Shown one piece after another: positions 30,735-38,291 of a DNA stretch of 64,000 nt. The DNA comes from a virus. The stretch is from IMG/VR virus record IMGVR_UViG_3300028388_004281, positions 4,204 through 68,203 of that record; one strand, written 5' to 3'. Position 1 is the stretch's first letter, and every line of letters begins with the position of its first letter. Under the pieces are notes generated by a model. That model did no database searches, was not told the DNA's origin, and saw only the letters and a program-made list of their open reading frames with translations. A program made the position numbers and the translations under genes.

Positions 30735-30770
30735 TAAAACCCCCTACGCCACGTGTTGGACGTAGGGGGT
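30735..30770 (-). terminator. Intrinsic terminator ending the leftward early operon
   Basis: ACCCCCTACG / CGTAGGGGGT stem followed by a T run on the - strand. Confidence 0.65.
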
Positions 30771-31388: not shown

Positions 31389-33119
31389 CTACTTCGTAAC
31401 GTAGACCAGTTTGTTGATGGCCCGTGTGATTGCGACATACAGCAGATTGTACTCCTGCGTGCGCTGCCACTTCGTGCGGGCCATAGGGTGCGGAAATTCG
31501 CTGCCGTCGCAGTTGAGCAGGAACACGTTGCCGGCCTCCAATCCCTTGGCACGATGTACGCTAGAGAATAGAACGCCCTGCGGCGTAACCAGCTTGGGGC
31601 CCTCGTAGTATCCCTTGGCGTTGCGCTCCGTCTTGCAATCCTTGTTATAGCAGCGGTCCGTAGACTCGTTGTACGAACGGCCGCACTTGGGGCAGATCTT
31701 GCCGGTGAAGATCGTGGATACGTTATCTAGTACGTCTGCGACGGTCTTGGTCCCGTCGGCCAACGTTATTATGCAGTCACGGCGGTCGCCCAGAGCGATT
31801 AGTCGTGGCTCGCTGGGGTTCTTCTTGCGGTGTTCCTTCTCGGTCTCTCGGTCGTACCATGCCTCTGTCTTGTCGATGAGGTCCGGTACGTCCGTGGCGT
31901 CCATGCGCTTGACGAAGTTCACTAGCTCCGTACCGAACTCCCGGCCGCGTACCGTGGCCTTGCGACCCGCCTTGATGAAGCGGAGAGCCTGCGAGATCAG
32001 CGGGGCGTTAACGCGACTCAGTACCATGTCGCCGTCCTGTACCTCGTCGGCATACTTAGACTTGGGCAGCCTGGACACGGAGCCGTCAGTGTTCGACTCA
32101 TGGGCACGAAATATGCAGTCGCCTAGTCTGGATAGGACGGTGTTAGCTTCCGACACGATGGCCTTACCGCAGCGGCGGGTCTCCGTGAGCCGTAACGTGT
32201 CGGCCCCTAGCATCTCACGCACTCGTGGTATGGACTCCGTGTCGGCACCGGCGAACCCGTAGATGGCTTGGTTTACGTCACCCACTACGACTACACTGCG
32301 GCCCGCACGCCGGACGAACTCCTGCTTGCAACGCGGCAGGTCCTGTCCCTCATCGACCATGACTACGTCGCTCTTGAATATAGGGAGGTCCAAGACGACT
32401 GGCAGCCAGTTCTGGTCGTTGAAGTCTATCTCGCCCAGCAGCTTGGGATCGAGGCTGAGACGTAGGATCTCAGGTACGATGCGATACACACGCTCTCGAC
32501 TGCCGTTCAGGTCAACGTCGAAGTGTGCTACTAGTCCGTCGAGTACTTCGTCCGTGACGTGGGTGGGATCGAACTGGCCGTCTTCGTAGCCCGCCAGCGT
32601 CAGCTTGCAGAGGCCTACCAGCTTCTCTACGGCTGGTAGCATGACTGGCTCGCTGCGCAGTATCTCACGTGGGTCCTTGCCGAGATAGTAGGCTACTAGG
32701 TTACGTGTATGACTGTCCGTGACCTGCAGCCTACCGAACGTCTTGTAGATAGCCGAGTTGCCTAACGAATTGACGGTGGCGAACTTTAGCTGTACGCCTG
32801 CAGACACCAATAGGTCAGCCAACCACCCCCACTTCTCTCCGAACTCTGTAACGATGGATTTGTTGAAGGCGCAGTAGGTTATGGTCTTGCAACCGTTGTA
32901 CTGTTGGAGGTGGTCCCAGACTGCCTGTTGTTCGTCGCTTGGTAATACCTCACCCATGCGTTCCACGAACTGGTCCCAGACTTTCCTGGGGGCCAACGAG
33001 GCTGCGCAACCGACGATCATGGTAAACGTCTTGCCAGTGCCCGCTAGAGCCTCGACAACTAGGTTATTGGGACGGCTGCTCTTGCTTTCGGCCAGCTTCT
33101 GTTTAATGGTCTTCTTCAC
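31389..33119 (-). CDS. UvrD/Rep-like superfamily 1 helicase with Zn-finger insertion
   Basis: ALAGTGKT, DEGQD, GD.NQAIYGF.GA, SVHRAKGLE, YVAITRA; CPKC...C...C insert. Confidence 0.92.
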   Translation of the reverse strand: MKKTIKQKLAESKSSRPNNLVVEALAGTGKTFTMIVGCAASLAPRKVWDQFVERMGEVLPSDEQQAVWDHLQQYNGCKTITYCAFNKSIVTEFGEKWGWLADLLVSAGVQLKFATVNSLGNSAIYKTFGRLQVTDSHTRNLVAYYLGKDPREILRSEPVMLPAVEKLVGLCKLTLAGYEDGQFDPTHVTDEVLDGLVAHFDVDLNGSRERVYRIVPEILRLSLDPKLLGEIDFNDQNWLPVVLDLPIFKSDVVMVDEGQDLPRCKQEFVRRAGRSVVVVGDVNQAIYGFAGADTESIPRVREMLGADTLRLTETRRCGKAIVSEANTVLSRLGDCIFRAHESNTDGSVSRLPKSKYADEVQDGDMVLSRVNAPLISQALRFIKAGRKATVRGREFGTELVNFVKRMDATDVPDLIDKTEAWYDRETEKEHRKKNPSEPRLIALGDRRDCIITLADGTKTVADVLDNVSTIFTGKICPKCGRSYNESTDRCYNKDCKTERNAKGYYEGPKLVTPQGVLFSSVHRAKGLEAGNVFLLNCDGSEFPHPMARTKWQRTQEYNLLYVAITRAINKLVYVTK

Positions 33120-34693: not shown

Positions 34694-34721
34694 CTGTCAG
34701 CTCCTTGTCATTGAGGGACCT

Positions 34722-34776
34722 GCCTCATCAGCACCGGTAAGTCAGTTCCGGCGGACGCCCTGAGGGGCGTTTCGGC
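34722..34776 (-). ncRNA. Hammerhead ribozyme, type II
   Basis: gcc-GAAAC-GCCC ctca GGGC-GTC-cgccgg(10-nt loop)ccggtg-CTGATGA-ggc; all core nucleotides and three stems present. Confidence 0.88.
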
Positions 34777-35069
34777 TATAGCTTGCGTCCGAAGGTTACC
34801 AGCTCACCTCGGCATTCGTAAGTCAATGCTACACGGCGGAGGTTGCCGTTGTCGTATCCGTAGCAGTCCACCATGACCCACGTGTTAGGACGAAGACTAA
34901 ACAAGTGGCGATCGTGATCACGAGTGAACCAATACCATTCCTTGCCATCGATTTCGAGGACTACGAACGGAGTTTCGCCAGGCCCACCATAACAAGCACT
35001 GGTTCCGGTCCGTACCACCCAGGCGCTACCGCTGATCTTCGTTCCTTTGGTCACTTTCTTCGTTGCCAT
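34776..35069 (-). CDS. Small early protein
   Basis: Starts at repeat-variant ATG. Confidence 0.65.
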   Translation of the reverse strand: MATKKVTKGTKISGSAWVVRTGTSACYGGPGETPFVVLEIDGKEWYWFTRDHDRHLFSLRPNTWVMVDCYGYDNGNLRRVALTYECRGELVTFGRKL

Positions 35070-35631: not shown

Positions 35632-35642
35632 CGTTTCGCTCC

Positions 35643-35705
35643 TGGGTTTCGTGGTGACTCGTCAGTACCGGTAAGTCAGTTCCGGCGGACGCCCCGAGGG
35701 GCGTT
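35643..35705 (-). ncRNA. Chimeric or degenerate hammerhead element
   Basis: 5' part nearly identical to 34728-34771; 3' part CTGACGA-GTcaccAC-GAAACCCA like the 35964 copy. Confidence 0.6.
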
Positions 35706-35709
35706 GACG

Positions 35710-35946
35710 TTACTCCTCTTCTACCACCTCGATCATCTCTGCGGCATACGGATCGTACTCTGAATCGACAAGGCCTGTCAGACGACACGTAACGTTGATG
35801 GGAAACAGTTCAACATCGTTGTTGCCGCAGTAAACTTGGACGAGGTAGTCGAACACCTTCCGCCAGTCCTCTCCAGGACCGATGACCCAAGTGATGGGCT
35901 CAATTCGTCCGTCGTCGTACCGTAGTTCGCAGTTCAGTTGATTCAT
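35710..35946 (-). CDS. Small acidic early protein (first gene of leftward transcript)
   Basis: Starts at repeat ATG. Confidence 0.7.
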   Translation of the reverse strand: MNQLNCELRYDDGRIEPITWVIGPGEDWRKVFDYLVQVYCGNNDVELFPINVTCRLTGLVDSEYDPYAAEMIEVVEEE

Positions 35947-35963
35947 CTGTCAGCTCCTTGTGT

Positions 35964-36013
35964 TGGGTTTCGTCGCAACTCGTCAGGCACGGCTGCGAAT
36001 GCCGTGCGACCCA
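35964..36013 (-). ncRNA. Hammerhead ribozyme, type III
   Basis: TGG-GTC-gcacggc(7-nt loop)gccgtgc-CTGACGA-GTtgcgAC-GAAAC-CCA. Confidence 0.82.
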
Positions 36014-36310
36014 GAGGGGCTGCTCGTTTGCGCGAGCACCCCGTGGCTTGGGCGACCTCCTCCCAACTCCGTCGAGTTGCGTTGCATCCGACCGATCCGG
36101 CTGCTGTTGTGTGCTACTTGCTTTCGCTTGCGCTGCGGTGGTTAGCCGCGAGCCGGACCCCGCGTCAGTCCTGCGGTGGGTCAGGAGTCGAATGCCGCTC
36201 CTGTGGAAGAGGTCTCGGTTGTGTGCCCGGTTAGATCCGGGTAGGGGAAACGGTTGTCGTTCGTTTCCGCCGTTCGAGTTGTCAAAGATCAGTAACCGTT
36301 AAGCGTCCTT
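36014..36310 (-). ncRNA. Highly structured non-coding leader of about 300 nt
   Basis: At least 6 hairpins and a longer-range stem; no credible ORF. Confidence 0.55.
36279..36291 (-). promoter_or_regulatory. boxA-like antitermination element TGATCTTTGACAA
   Basis: Close to rrn/nut boxA consensus TGCTCTTTAACAA; about 25 nt downstream of predicted start. Confidence 0.65.
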
Positions 36311-36320
36311 GCCTACGGCA

Positions 36321-36348
36321 AGTATAACGTAGTATCGGCGGAAGTAAA
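36321..36348 (-). promoter_or_regulatory. sigma70-like early promoter TTTACT-N16-TATACT
   Basis: Near-consensus hexamers with an upstream AT-rich tract. Confidence 0.6.
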
Positions 36349-36399
36349 TACCCGTAGCGGGTAATTCCTGCAAAAAACTGAAAATATTTTAGGGCATGG

Positions 36400-36434
36400 T
36401 AAAACCCCGGTGAATTCGTGGATCCACCGGGGTT
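36400..36434 (-). terminator. Intrinsic terminator downstream of ParB-like gene
   Basis: AACCCCGGTG / CACCGGGGTT stem plus T run on the - strand. Confidence 0.7.
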
Positions 36435-36479
36435 ACAGGTACCCCGAGAGGGGGGGGGGTATTTACCCGTAGCGGGCTA

Positions 36480-37736
36480 TTACACGGGGTCGCCTAGGTC
36501 GATGCCGCCTAGGCACGGGCTGTCGGTCAGTACCGGTATGCCGTCCTCGTCCTTGGAGTACTCCAACGCTAGAGCGTCCGTCGTCATGCGCTTGTTGGAA
36601 ACGAAGAGGCCCCAAGCTTTGATGAGGATCGCGATGCGTTCGGCCATGCTGCCACCGTCCTCCTGTATCATGGCGGACAGTGCCTGTCGTACCGGATCGA
36701 ACTTGACATCACCTGCTGCCAGTAGCACGAAGAACTCGCAGGCCTTGTCCCAGTACTTGAAGTCTACCAGCTGTTCACTAGGCTGCGCCGTTACGCTGTA
36801 CTCGCCGTCCTCGCCCGTACCGGATGCCGCCATCAGGTACAGTAGTCCGGAGGAGTAGCCAGGCGATAGATACTTGCCGACCGTATTGGTAGTACCGTTC
36901 TCCTCGTAGATGTGCCGCACCGCATCCAGCAGCTTGGTGTGGCGGGACAGGAAGTCAAGCGCCTCCGCGTGCGTGCGCCTAGGAGCGTACGCGTCGGAGC
37001 CTGCGCCTGTACGTGCCCACGTGATACGTATGGCATGGTCTAGCATCCGTGCCAGCCGTTGACGGTCTCTGCGGTCTACCGTCTTGAAGTACTCGCTGCG
37101 AAAGATTACGTCGGCTAGAGTACGAGGACGACCTGTGTCAATAGTGTTGACTACTGCGTCGGTCTCGTCGATACCGAAGACTACCAGCTTGTCGATGGTA
37201 GGCTCGGTCTTCCAGTTGTCCCATTGCCCCTGCTTGGCCGTCCACTCCAGGGCGGCGAGGGCCAGGGCGATGAGCGTGTGCTGGCCATTGAGGATAAGGC
37301 CGGTACGGCCGATGATGATCGGCTCGCCGTTCAGCTGCCAGTTACCTCGCAGGATCTCCTGCCGAAGTACCATGACGGTACCTAATGACAGGTGTCGGTT
37401 ACTGATGTTGTTGTTACAGCGTACCTTGACTCCTTGCTGGTCCTTGGCAGCTGGTAACCGTAGGTGGAACTCGGTGCCGAACTTGACGTTCTCCGACTCC
37501 TCCTGCCATCCTAGCAGCTCCTTGGCCTTGTCGGCGGTCAGGGGCGTTGCCAGCTGCGTGCGTAGTCTGTCGTATAATACCTCGCGTTTCGGGGTTGCCA
37601 GCTCCTTCTTCTGGGACTTAGGTTTCTTGGTGGTTGACGTCCTGTCCGACCGAGACGGGGCGGACGCGGTGCCTTGGGACTTCGTACTCTTGCTGCTGGG
37701 GGTCTTCCTCCTGGGGGTCTTCGTAGCTGTTACCAT
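36480..37736 (-). CDS. ParB/Srx-like N-terminal domain protein with basic disordered tail
   Basis: NR.L, G.W.LNGEPI, NGQHTL.A, IDTGRPRTL.D. Confidence 0.7.
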   Translation of the reverse strand: MVTATKTPRRKTPSSKSTKSQGTASAPSRSDRTSTTKKPKSQKKELATPKREVLYDRLRTQLATPLTADKAKELLGWQEESENVKFGTEFHLRLPAAKDQQGVKVRCNNNISNRHLSLGTVMVLRQEILRGNWQLNGEPIIIGRTGLILNGQHTLIALALAALEWTAKQGQWDNWKTEPTIDKLVVFGIDETDAVVNTIDTGRPRTLADVIFRSEYFKTVDRRDRQRLARMLDHAIRITWARTGAGSDAYAPRRTHAEALDFLSRHTKLLDAVRHIYEENGTTNTVGKYLSPGYSSGLLYLMAASGTGEDGEYSVTAQPSEQLVDFKYWDKACEFFVLLAAGDVKFDPVRQALSAMIQEDGGSMAERIAILIKAWGLFVSNKRMTTDALALEYSKDEDGIPVLTDSPCLGGIDLGDPV

Positions 37737-37820
37737 TCCGTAGCTCCTTGATGTACTGGTGGTAGAAATACTCCGGCCTCTCTTCCGCCAGCTTGCGTAG
37801 CTGGCTTAGCCTATTGCGTT

Positions 37821-38018
37821 TCATACGATCCTTCCTACCGTCACTGGCACAGCGTCTGTGACGGGCTCTAGAGTAGTACGTATGTCCCTGCGGCTGTATG
37901 CCGCAACTACCTCCCGTGCATGATCATTGTCATGCTTGCCGTACGGCACGCCGTCCACGTCACCGTACTCACTCCTGTCGACCCCTAACAATGCAGCGGT
38001 TTCAATCACTCTCACCAC
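37821..38018 (-). CDS. Hypothetical protein
   Basis: AAGGAG upstream. Confidence 0.45.
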   Translation of the reverse strand: MVRVIETAALLGVDRSEYGDVDGVPYGKHDNDHAREVVAAYSRRDIRTTLEPVTDAVPVTVGRIV

Positions 38019-38291
38019 GTCCTTAACTCCTTGTCGTGAGGGTACTAAAACGAAAACGGCACACGCTAGTAATATAACGTATGCCTAGGTCACGTAATAG
38101 CCTACTACCTAATAGTACAGTAGTACTACTTAGGAGTAGACCGTGCCTTATACGTTAGTATAATGGTTTTTGACCCCTAAGTAAATAGGGGGGTAGAGGG
38201 GTAAATTTCGGCGGTTTTCGGGGGCGGCCTACGCGGCGAGTATAGTATTACTAACGGCCCATGCAGGGCCTCTAGAAAGCGAAGGTGCGAC

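What the first reader, a model, noticed from the sequence alone, without database searches (positions are those of the whole stretch)
36014..36348. Promoter, boxA, 300-nt structured leader, then ribozyme: rRNA-like antitermination or a released ncRNA
Seen: a sigma70-like promoter, TGATCTTTGACAA about 25 nt downstream, and successive stems (36246-52/36262-68, 36226-30/36237-41, 36182-87/36198-203, 36096-102/36151-57 enclosing inner stems, 36064-69/36074-79, 36021-26/36033-38), ending at the type III hammerhead. Known: boxA recruits NusB/NusE. Inference: the leader antiterminates the early operon with no N-like gene recognised, and ribozyme cleavage would free a discrete RNA of about 300 nt, perhaps a decoy or CsrA sponge.
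Basis: partly seen in the sequence, partly recalled or inferred. Interest (0 to 1): 0.7.

Follow-up and report, generated by a model that had tools for sequence, protein, structure and literature searches.

The report
Phage leader RNA with boxA and hammerhead
An uncultured phage starts one of its early operons with a 300-base non-coding leader that carries a ribosomal-RNA-style boxA signal at its front and a self-cutting hammerhead ribozyme at its end, an arrangement shared by related phages and apparently not described before.

Summary
On the minus strand lie a conserved sigma70-type promoter (36348-36321), a boxA-like 13-mer (36290-36278), about 270 nt of ORF-poor structured RNA and a type III hammerhead (36017-35961, cut after C36008) just before the SD and ATG of a 78-aa gene.

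Comparative data make it a family. Twelve sequences (11 lineages) from related uncultured phages have the same layout downstream of a 418-aa gene.
- The boxA varies only at the two positions that are degenerate in the published consensus. It matches a real actinobacterial rrn leader at 13 of 15 positions.
- The hammerhead (10 lineages) covaries strongly. Its stem II is cut down to 1-2 pairs and a loop I-loop II pseudoknot stands in for it. Rfam models mostly miss it.
- Leaders fold better than shuffles and than coding controls. One close pair of leaders keeps 120 of 120 predicted pairs.
- No Rfam family and no protein-coding signal fit the leader.

Best reading (about 0.55): an N-independent, rrn-style Nus-factor loading site protects a long untranslated leader and operon from Rho, and the ribozyme then trims the leader off. 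A trans-acting released RNA is possible. A CsrA sponge is not supported. Nothing here is tested biochemically.

The parts
36403..36434 (-). Terminator-like hairpin (13-nt arms, 92% complementary) followed by a U run, after the upstream 418-aa gene
   Evidence: I2
36351..36361 (.). Palindrome CCCGCTACGGG abutting the -35 hexamer. A second copy lies at 36466-36476. Possible operator.
   Evidence: (D1, I1); L003 has CCCGTTACGGG in the same place
36321..36348 (-). Sigma70-type promoter TTTACT-16-TATACT, part of the conserved motif TATTTACT..CGATACT..TATA. Predicted transcription start near 36314.
   Evidence: the same motif in L004, L034, L045, L050, L061
36278..36290 (-). boxA-like 13-mer GAUCUUUGACAAC
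   Evidence: matches real rrn leaders and published consensus sequences
36269..36277 (-). Conserved 3' flank UCGAACGGC (family pattern UYRAACGGC)
   Evidence: its first bases match the Nocardia rrn leader flank
36246..36268 (-). Hairpin GGAAACG / CGUUUCC with a 9-nt A-rich loop
   Evidence: L003 has GGAAA / UUUCC at the matching place (read by eye)
36226..36241 (-). Hairpin CCCGG / CCGGG
36205..36221 (-). Block CAACCGAGACCUCUUCC. Its 3' part (36214-36205) pairs over a long range with GGAGGAGGUC at 36063-36054.
   Evidence: 14-mer identical in L032; MFE; the L032 counterpart CCUCUC..CUCC / GGAG..GAGAGG was read by eye
36156..36182 (-). Hairpin GACC-CA-CCGC..GCGG-G-GGUC inside the conserved 17-mer CCUGACCCACCGCAGGA
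   Evidence: 17 of 17 in L058, 17 of 19 in L061; L003 has AACC..GGUU, a compensated outer pair (by eye)
36096..36157 (-). Helix 36157-36151 / 36102-36096 enclosing smaller stems
36064..36079 (-). Hairpin CAACUC-GACG-GAGUUG
   Evidence: L003 has CAAGCU-GACG-AGCUUG, three compensated pairs
36054..36063 (-). Purine tract GGAGGAGGUC, the 3' strand of the long-range helix. It looks like an SD but has no start codon after it.
   Evidence: (14 of 15 in L040)
36016..36042 (-). Hairpin GGGGUGCUCG / CGAGCAGCCCC directly before the cleavage site
35961..36017 (-). Type III hammerhead. Stem III GGGU/ACCC(A), cleavage GUC| between 36008 and 36007. Stem I is 7 bp. Loop I CGCA pairs with loop II UGCG. Core CUGACGA..GAAA. 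Stem II has only 2 pairs.
   Evidence: 69.3 bits with R1
35954..35959 (-). SD AAGGAG of the first gene
35710..35946 (-). First gene of the operon, 78 aa, no family
35641..35705 (-). Second, degenerate or hybrid hammerhead before the 99-aa gene
   Evidence: 21.3 bits, type II model; 24 bits, E 4e-4 with R1
34714..34777 (-). Third hammerhead, type II, above Rfam's gathering score
   Evidence: 42.7 bits against a gathering score of 37
30739..30770 (-). Strong intrinsic terminator (12-bp stem plus U tract) that ends the leftward operon

Best explanation
Region 36348-35947 (minus strand) is the promoter and 5' leader of a leftward early operon of a 68-kb uncultured phage. The operon holds small genes, then an SF1 helicase, and ends at the terminator at 30770-30739. 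The leader belongs to a conserved family.

Proposed mechanism:
1. Host sigma70 RNA polymerase starts near 36314.
2. Within the first 25-40 nt the RNA shows an rrn-type boxA with a conserved 3' flank. This loads host NusB-S10, and with them NusA and NusG, onto the elongating polymerase, as at rRNA operons and without a phage N protein.
3. The modified polymerase resists Rho. It can therefore cross about 270 nt of untranslated, highly structured RNA and the ribozyme-punctuated operon behind it.
4. The type III hammerhead then cuts after C36008. This releases a leader of about 307 nt with a 2',3'-cyclic phosphate end. It leaves an mRNA with a 5'-OH and about 50 nt before the SD.

Shown here: the sequence features, their conservation, the covariation of the ribozyme, and the structural conservation of the leader.
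Inferred: Nus-factor binding, Rho resistance, and cleavage in vivo.
For: Family: 12 leader sequences (11 lineages) have promoter, boxA and then 247-530 nt without a conserved ORF. They are the window, L003, L017, L032, L040, L044, L045, L058, L061, L069, L088 and L106. By my hand count of the table, about 11 of 40 distinct relatives with at least 600 nt downstream have it. L106 was found separately.

boxA (alignment A7):
- G1, U3, C4, U6, U7, A9 and A11 are invariant in 12 of 12.
- The freely variable positions are 2 and 10, the two degenerate positions of the published GYTCTTTAANA (passages of PMC5725501). C4 and U6 are the positions mutated there to kill boxA.
- The window matches the B. subtilis rrn consensus AUGAUCUUUGAAA at 11 of 13 positions (passages of PMC13753749).
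- It matches two real Nocardia rrn leaders at 13 of the first 15 positions, with mismatches only at positions 2 and 10.

Context:
- Relatives with short leaders (L004, L006, L050, L034) have no boxA.
- The operon has no strong internal intrinsic terminator. This fits an anti-Rho role rather than terminator read-through.

Hammerhead: 96.9% of cells paired, 10 of 18 pairs changed on both sides, 0 of 500 shuffles as high, and slid controls at 30-48% paired. Model R1 finds it in 10 lineages among 85 sources.

Leader structure:
- MFE z-score is at most -2 in 8 of 12 leaders, mean about -2.65. Upstream coding controls give 4 of 12, mean -0.86.
- L040 against L044: 120 predicted pairs, 4 compensated on both sides, 12 changed on one side, 0 broken.

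Non-coding: tblastx between leaders gives only frame-independent hits, and Pfam is blank.

Precedents: hammerheads flank genes in prophages, and one lies 13 nt before the first ORF of an early transcript (passages of PMC3088659).
Against: There is no RNA or biochemical data, and the host is unknown.

A self-cleaving ribozyme between boxA and the genes would cut the RNA tether to the polymerase. If the complex needs that tether, protection would cover mainly the leader.

Four of 12 leaders (L040, L044, L069, L088) have no hammerhead at their end.

The predicted accessibility of boxA is not consistently high. Mean P(unpaired) is 0.23-0.67, and it exceeds the whole-leader mean in only 5 of the 11 leaders folded (L017 was not folded there). 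In L040 and L044 the 5' half of boxA sits in a predicted long-range helix.

L072 has an 860-nt non-coding stretch in the same place without boxA.

Several conserved internal features have no role in this model: CAACCGAGACCUCU, CCUGACCCACCGCAGGA, GGGAAAGCAACC and the motif [UA][GA]ACC[CU]A.

The mini-hairpin UUUGA/UYRAA that overlaps boxA is 91.7% paired. That would compete with binding to single-stranded RNA, although it shows no covariation beyond shuffles.
Confidence: 0.55

Rival explanations
1. The product is the released leader itself. In this reading it is a stable, structured RNA of about 300 nt that acts in trans, for example as a decoy for NusB-S10 and NusA or for another host or phage factor. 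boxA and the ribozyme would serve only to make it and free it.
For: - Internal blocks are conserved between distant members and the antitermination model does not explain them.
- The structure is strong and maintained.
- The 3' end is defined by a validated ribozyme in 8 of 12 leaders.
- The phage pays 300-500 nt in a compact genome.
- The layout resembles an rRNA transcription unit: promoter, boxA, structured RNA, processing site.
Against: - Four of 12 leaders lack the ribozyme.
- The length (247-530 nt) and the sequence of the middle part vary widely.
- GGA motifs are not enriched, so it is not a CsrB/RsmZ-type sponge.
- There is no Rfam match.
- No expression data exist.
Confidence: 0.17
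2. The leader is a cis-regulatory switch. Alternative pairings decide whether the hammerhead folds and whether the first gene is translated, in response to temperature, a ligand or a protein. The boxA-like string would be incidental or a second input.
For: - The leader holds copies of the stem III partner sequence (ACCC/ACCU) and a CCC 4-5 nt before GGGUC in 4 of 8 cases. These could compete with stem III (read by eye).
- In the window a 9-nt leader segment is complementary to the ribozyme core (I4).
Against: - The I4 pairing is at chance level and is not conserved in position in L003.
- The genes after the leader are unrelated between phages. A gene-specific sensor is therefore unlikely.
- No riboswitch family matches.
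Confidence: 0.1
3. The boxA-like string is not a Nus-factor site. It could be a lambda-type nut site that needs an unrecognised phage N-like protein and a boxB hairpin, or a DNA-level element next to the promoter.
For: - A hairpin with an A-rich loop follows boxA after 9-13 nt in several leaders.
- A 68-aa ORF upstream (37824-37618) has a basic N-terminus.
- Palindromes flank the promoter.
Against: - The hairpin after boxA is not conserved in stem or loop.
- No N-like family was found.
- The distance from the -10 hexamer varies from 17 to 40 nt. This argues against a DNA site fixed relative to the promoter.
- The motif matches authentic rrn leaders, flank included.
Confidence: 0.1
4. The region is protein-coding on one strand, or is decayed sequence without function.
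For: Plus-strand ORFs of 114 and 98 aa overlap it.
Against: - Pfam finds nothing.
- The ORFs are not conserved in relatives.
- Conserved motifs, covariation and fold z-scores argue for a functional RNA.
Confidence: 0.03

Closest known systems
rrn-type boxA antitermination (NusB-S10, NusA, NusG and SuhB at rRNA leaders; also at suhB and, from recall, CRISPR arrays)
   Same: A boxA of the same consensus lies at the 5' end of a long untranslated transcript. The conserved and degenerate positions are the same as published. The 3' flank resembles that of an actinobacterial rrn leader. No phage protein appears to be needed.
   Different: It sits in a phage early operon rather than a cellular RNA operon. 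It is followed by a self-cleaving ribozyme rather than an RNase III leader-trailer helix. No second boxA follows the cut. Binding and function are untested.
Lambda nut sites (boxA plus boxB plus N protein)
   Same: A phage uses a boxA close to an early promoter, presumably to make the polymerase resistant to termination.
   Different: There is no conserved boxB hairpin and no recognisable N protein. The boxA is close to the full rrn consensus, not the weaker lambda form.
Hammerhead ribozymes in prophage and phage operons (Perreault et al. 2011, PMC3088659), including the halovirus HF1/HF2 hammerhead before the first early ORF
   Same: Several hammerheads flank small genes. One lies just upstream of the start codon of the first gene of an early polycistronic transcript. 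A loop-loop pseudoknot provides the tertiary contact.
   Different: Stem II is reduced to G10.1-C11.1 with at most one further pair. Rfam type III scores 25.5 bits for the window and gives nothing at E up to 1 for any relative scanned: L003, L032, L034, L045, L058, L061 and L017, L050, L106. The ribozyme is coupled to a boxA leader.
RNA-only antiterminators (HK022 put, EAR) and large phage-borne ncRNAs (GOLLD, ROOL)
   Same: Structured non-coding RNA at the start of an operon or in a phage genome.
   Different: There is no match to any Rfam family. The comparison with put rests on recall only.

Membership tests
boxA (NusB-S10 binding element, rrn type) | Sequence consensus (GYTCTTTAANA in gamma-proteobacteria; AUGAUCUUUGAAA in B. 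subtilis rrn) | tested here: met
   The window's GAUCUUUGACA matches 9 of 11 and 11 of 13 positions. It matches Nocardia rrn leaders at 13 of 15. Invariant and variable positions across the 12 leaders mirror the consensus.
boxA (NusB-S10 binding element, rrn type) | Lies in the transcribed RNA near the 5' end of a long untranslated transcript | tested here: met
   It starts 17-40 nt after a sigma70-like -10 hexamer in the 10 leaders scored. At least 247 nt without a conserved ORF follow. The transcription start is predicted, not mapped.
boxA (NusB-S10 binding element, rrn type) | Single-stranded when presented | tested here: inconclusive
   Mean P(unpaired) is 0.67 in the window but 0.23-0.60 in relatives. 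A weak overlapping hairpin is possible.
boxA (NusB-S10 binding element, rrn type) | Binds NusB-S10 and confers resistance to Rho | not testable with these tools
   This needs binding assays and reporter assays. The host is unknown.
Hammerhead ribozyme, type III (RF00008) | Catalytic core CUGANGA .. GAAA and an NUH cleavage site | tested here: met
   CUGACGA, GAAA and GUC are present. The C3-G8 pair becomes U3-A8 in L050 and L058.
Hammerhead ribozyme, type III (RF00008) | Stems I and III supported; stem III open-ended | tested here: met
   Stem I: 6 of 7 pairs changed on both sides, 98.4% paired. Stem III: 100% paired with 1 compensated pair.
Hammerhead ribozyme, type III (RF00008) | A regular stem II of several pairs, and a score above Rfam's gathering threshold | tested here: not met
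   Only G10.1-C11.1 is invariant. A 4-bp loop I-loop II pseudoknot replaces the stem: 88.9% paired, 2 pairs compensated. Rfam gives 25.5 bits against 48.5. I file it as a structural variant of the class, not as a standard RF00008 member.
Hammerhead ribozyme, type III (RF00008) | Self-cleavage | not testable with these tools
   This needs in vitro transcription.
Lambda-type nut site | A conserved boxB hairpin 3' of boxA and a phage N protein | tested here: not met
   The hairpins after boxA differ in stem and loop. No N-like family was found. The blank protein result is weak evidence.
CsrA/RsmA sponge RNAs | Many GGA motifs, enriched over background | tested here: not met
   There are 5-15 GGA per leader, equal to the shuffle means, in 12 of 12 leaders.
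Any curated RNA family (Rfam 15) | A match of the leader body | tested here: not met
   Nothing was found at E up to 10 in the window's region or at E up to 1 in the relatives. The best hit in the L032 leader is CRISPR-DR10 at 12.3 bits, E 7.2, which is chance level.

The most novel reading that the evidence does not exclude
The leader is a phage-borne mimic of an rRNA transcription unit: promoter, boxA with a NusA-type flank, structured RNA, then a self-processing site. In this reading its ribozyme-released, boxA-bearing RNA acts in trans. It would soak up host NusB-S10 and NusA, so that host rRNA operons lose their antitermination complex (host shut-off), while the phage's own operon has already been modified in cis.
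Probability: 0.1. Interest if true: 0.85.

Novelty: new variant of a known kind. Interest (0 to 1): 0.62.

Why it matters
If boxA works here as it does at rRNA operons, these phages obtain processive, Rho-resistant transcription from host factors alone. That would be a third route beside N-type proteins and put-type RNAs.

It would also extend boxA control to phage operons and to uncultured lineages. The boxA variants could serve as a host-lineage clue.

The pairing with a self-cleaving ribozyme raises a testable question that is still open for rRNA: does a Nus-modified polymerase stay modified after its boxA RNA is cut off?

The hammerhead subclass (minimal stem II, loop-loop pseudoknot, U3-A8 variants) largely escapes the current Rfam models. 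Hammerheads in phages may therefore be under-counted.

Tried and rejected
CsrA sponge: rejected. GGA, AGGA and GGAG/GAGG counts equal the shuffle means.

Anti-ribozyme pairing (leader 36081-36073 with core 35982-35974, I4): about chance for a 621-nt region by my own estimate. The matching segment in L003 lies elsewhere. Dropped.

Long-range helix between the 3' flank of boxA and downstream RNA: real in L040 and L044 (two compensated pairs, about 4 sd below shuffles) and likely in L017. It is absent in the 9 other leaders, so it is not a family feature.

Mini-hairpin UUUGA/UYRAA: compatible (91.7% paired), but 288 of 500 shuffles do as well. Inconclusive.

Repeat-mimic (RNA anti-CRISPR) idea for the CCCC-hairpin-GGGAAAGCAACC block: only a 12.3-bit CRISPR-DR10 hit at E 7.2. 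There is no array-like periodicity. Not supported.

Coding: rejected.

Close relatives among cultured phages: none by DNA. tblastn of the 418-aa protein gives only partial hits (24-25% coverage) to 18 Mycobacterium phage records.

The 78-aa first gene has no relative in viral contigs.

Expression: the look-up of sequencing runs listed no run and no RNA holder.

Host: the only close genome hit is a 73.8-kb contig binned in a Dehalococcoidia MAG. It is identical in the leader to L045 and is probably a phage contig. Host not settled.

Literature: searches for hammerhead + boxA + phage (3 papers, none on a natural case) and for boxA/phage/early operon/Nus factors/leader RNA/ribozyme (7 papers, none relevant) found no description of such a leader. 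This covers the held library only.

Supplements were closed. Supplementary Table 2 of PMC5725501, Fig. S1 of PMC13753749 and Figs S4-S5 of PMC3088659 may bear on the consensus and on pseudoknot types, and I did not see them.

Full report
**What the window is.** The window is 64 kb of a 68.2-kb IMG/VR phage record with direct terminal repeats. Genes run rightward at 1-30.5 kb and from 38.2 kb on. A leftward block lies at 38.2-30.7 kb. The finding sits in that block, on the minus strand. It lies between a 418-aa gene of unknown function (36480-37736, phrog_5931) and a run of small genes that leads to an SF1 helicase (31389-33119).

**The observation.**
- After the 418-aa gene comes a terminator-like hairpin (36403-36434). 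Two copies of the palindrome CCCGCTACGGG follow.
- The promoter is TTTACT-16-TATACT at 36348-36321.
- The string TGATCTTTGACAA is at 36291-36279, 30 nt after the -10 hexamer.
- The RNA from about 36314 to 36008 folds at -121 kcal/mol, with z = -3.4 and 0 of 100 shuffles as good.
- Rfam places a type III hammerhead at 35962-36015. Its 25.5 bits are below the gathering score of 48.5.
- Two more hammerheads follow between the small genes. One is a type II above threshold at 34714-34777. The other is a degenerate copy at about 35641-35705.

**Relatives.** No cultured phage is close.
- Anchoring on the helicase gave six viral loci.
- Anchoring on an alignment of the 418-aa protein (A2) gave 159 metagenome relatives, of which the best 80 were kept. 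It also gave one close genome contig.
- A DNA pattern added L106.
- In 12 sequences (11 lineages) the same layout is found: promoter, boxA-like 13-mer, 247-530 nt without a conserved ORF, then the next gene. These are the window, L003, L017, L032, L040, L044, L045, L058, L061, L069, L088 and L106.
- By my hand count of the table this is about 11 of 40 distinct relatives with enough downstream sequence.
- Relatives such as L004 and L006 keep the promoter but have 50-nt leaders with no boxA and no ribozyme. L002 has no intergenic leader at all.
- L050 has a 135-nt leader with the ribozyme but no boxA.
- The genes that follow the leader are unrelated between phages. The element therefore belongs to the operon, not to one gene.

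**boxA.**
- In the 12-row alignment A7, G1, U3, C4, U6, U7, A9, A11 and U14 are invariant. G8 and A12 hold in 11 of 12. Positions 2 and 10 vary freely.
- Those two are the degenerate positions of the consensus GYTCTTTAANA. C4 and U6 are the positions mutated there to inactivate a boxA (passages of PMC5725501).
- The B. subtilis rrn consensus AUGAUCUUUGAAA (passages of PMC13753749) matches the window at 11 of 13 positions.
- I fetched real rrn leaders as a check. Two contigs of a Nocardia genome carry GUUCUUUGAGAACUCAAUAG about 185 nt before the 16S gene. The window matches the first 15 positions at 13, failing only at positions 2 and 10. The match runs on into the flank (ACUC.A).
- A Dehalococcoidia MAG has GCACCUUAACAAC shortly after its 16S promoter.
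- From recall, not verified here (one search found no paper): mycobacterial NusA was crystallised with the rrn leader piece that lies just 3' of boxA. If so, the conserved flank could be a NusA site.
- In the window alone the motif is not statistically remarkable. The case rests on conservation and on likeness to true rrn leaders.

**The hammerhead.**
- Ten lineages carry the same subclass, always once and always just before an SD and start codon.
- On nine aligned sequences (A5; L045 dropped for an alignment reason) 96.9% of cells pair and 10 of 18 pairs have changes on both sides. No shuffle of 500 reaches any of the five measures, and slid controls fall to 30-48% paired.
- Stem I covaries at 6 of 7 pairs.
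- The C3-G8 pair becomes U3-A8 in two lineages.
- Stem II is only G10.1-C11.1 plus at most one pair.
- Four bases of loop I pair with loop II and covary: GGUA/UACC, GGCA/UGCC, CGCA/UGCG.
- Pseudoknots of this general kind, and hammerheads that flank phage genes or precede the first early ORF, are in print (passages of PMC3088659).
- At E up to 1 the Rfam hammerhead III model gave nothing for any relative scanned: L003, L032, L034, L045, L058 and L061 and L017, L050 and L106. L032 alone drew a weak hammerhead II hit of 27 bits. Only the window drew a hammerhead III hit, at 25.5 bits.

**The body of the leader.**
- It is non-coding. ORFs are short and not conserved. tblastx hits between leaders occur in several frames and on both strands at the same place, which indicates nucleotide similarity rather than protein similarity. 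Pfam is blank.
- It is U-poor (10-22% U) and rich in A and C.
- It is structured. The z-score is at most -2 in 8 of 12 leaders, with a mean near -2.65. Coding controls from the upstream gene give 4 of 12 and a mean of -0.86.
- The one closely related pair, L040 and L044, keeps all 120 predicted pairs. Four are compensated on both sides, 12 changed on one side and none broken. The caveat is that RNAalifold chooses a structure that fits both sequences.
- Between distant members only blocks are shared: CAACCGAGACCUCU (identical in L032), CCUGACCCACCGCAGGA (identical in L058, 17 of 19 in L061) and GAGUUGGGAGGAGGU (14 of 15 in L040).
- Two hairpins show compensated changes against L003 (read by eye).
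- No Rfam family matches.
- The leader is therefore a modular, partly conserved structured RNA. Only its two ends are universal or nearly so.

**Mechanism.**
- The operon from 36314 to the strong terminator at 30770-30739 has no strong internal intrinsic terminator. What a boxA complex would guard against here is Rho acting on a long untranslated leader and on ribozyme-cut, briefly ribosome-free RNA.
- This is the role boxA has at rRNA operons (passages).
- It fits the pattern that all 12 boxA copies precede at least 247 nt of untranslated RNA, while short leaders lack it. L072 is an exception in the other direction: 860 nt non-coding and no boxA.
- The ribozyme then removes the leader.
- Points against, or left open: the cut severs boxA from the polymerase, four leaders lack the ribozyme, predicted accessibility of boxA is mixed, and the conserved inner blocks have no assigned role.
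- I put the cis antitermination-plus-trimming model at about 0.55, a trans-acting released RNA at about 0.17, a cis switch at 0.1, a non-Nus or N-dependent site at 0.1, and coding or junk at 0.03.

**Comparison and novelty.** Each part is of a known kind: an rrn-type boxA, a phage hammerhead, and a sigma70 promoter. I found no record, in Rfam or in the held literature, of a conserved phage leader family that joins an rrn-consensus boxA, without boxB or N, to a self-cleaving ribozyme. I also found no record of this minimal-stem-II hammerhead subclass as such. I rate it a new variant of known kinds, of moderate to high interest. All functional steps remain to be tested.

Noticed in passing
window 34714-34777 (-) and 35641-35705 (-): Two further hammerheads lie between small genes of the same operon. 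One is a type II at 42.7 bits (gathering score 37). The other is a hybrid copy: its 5' GAAAC is spoiled, but it has a second GAAAC after the core. It scores 21 bits with the type II model and 24 bits with R1.
   Followed up: partly
window 36351-36361 and 36466-36476; L003 3216-3226: The palindrome CCCG(C/T)TACGGG occurs twice around the terminator and promoter, and again in L003 at the same place. It may be an operator for a phage regulator of this promoter.
   Followed up: no
window 38157-38185 (-) and 38137-38164 (+): A second copy of the TATTTACT..TATACT promoter, with a C-rich stretch before it, faces a rightward promoter. This is the divergent early control region. Its leftward 5' UTR holds a terminator-like hairpin at 38085-38058.
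   Followed up: no
L050 4765-4821, L058 4643-4699, L045 4793-4849, L017 5304-5361: Hammerhead core variants occur. U3-A8 replaces C3-G8 in two lineages, U3 with G8 occurs in L045, and L017 has a one-base insertion (CUGAACGAG).
   Followed up: partly
L072 4056-4920: About 860 nt without a good ORF follow the 418-aa homologue. There is no boxA and no Rfam hit at E up to 1. This may be another large non-coding RNA.
   Followed up: partly
L007 6340-6800: In this relative the same intergenic position holds tRNA-like sequences (GGTTCGAATCC arms).
   Followed up: no
12 leaders (/scratch/lead12.fa); window 36183-36177: The motif [UA][GA]ACC[CU]A occurs 14 times against 2.7 expected from mononucleotide shuffles. 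The motif was defined after seeing the data. It is complementary to the GGGU(C/U) strand at the ribozyme's cleavage site, but it also occurs in leaders without a ribozyme.
   Followed up: partly
L032 3382-3418 and the matching CCCC-hairpin-GGGAAAGCAACC block in L106, L045, L058 and L040: This is a semi-conserved block. Its best Rfam hit is a CRISPR repeat model (CRISPR-DR10, 12.3 bits, E 7.2), which is not significant.
   Followed up: partly
window 37618-37824 (-): A 68-aa ORF with a basic N-terminus (MKRNRLSQLRKLAEER) overlaps the listed start of the 418-aa ORF. Homologues of the 418-aa protein align only from about residue 50, so the true start of that gene may lie further downstream.
   Followed up: no
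window 36480-37736 (-): The 418-aa protein family (phrog_5931, invariant NGQH motif) is widespread: 159 relatives in the metagenome scan. Parts of it resemble proteins of Mycobacterium phages. Together with the actinobacterial look of the boxA this hints at an actinobacterial host.
   Followed up: partly
window 36452-36461: A run of ten C (minus strand) lies in the 3' UTR of the 418-aa gene, inside a hairpin just before the terminator.
   Followed up: no
L006 4490-4930: Repeated intergenic elements containing CCCCATTGAAGG precede successive small genes in this relative. They stand where the window has hammerheads.
   Followed up: no
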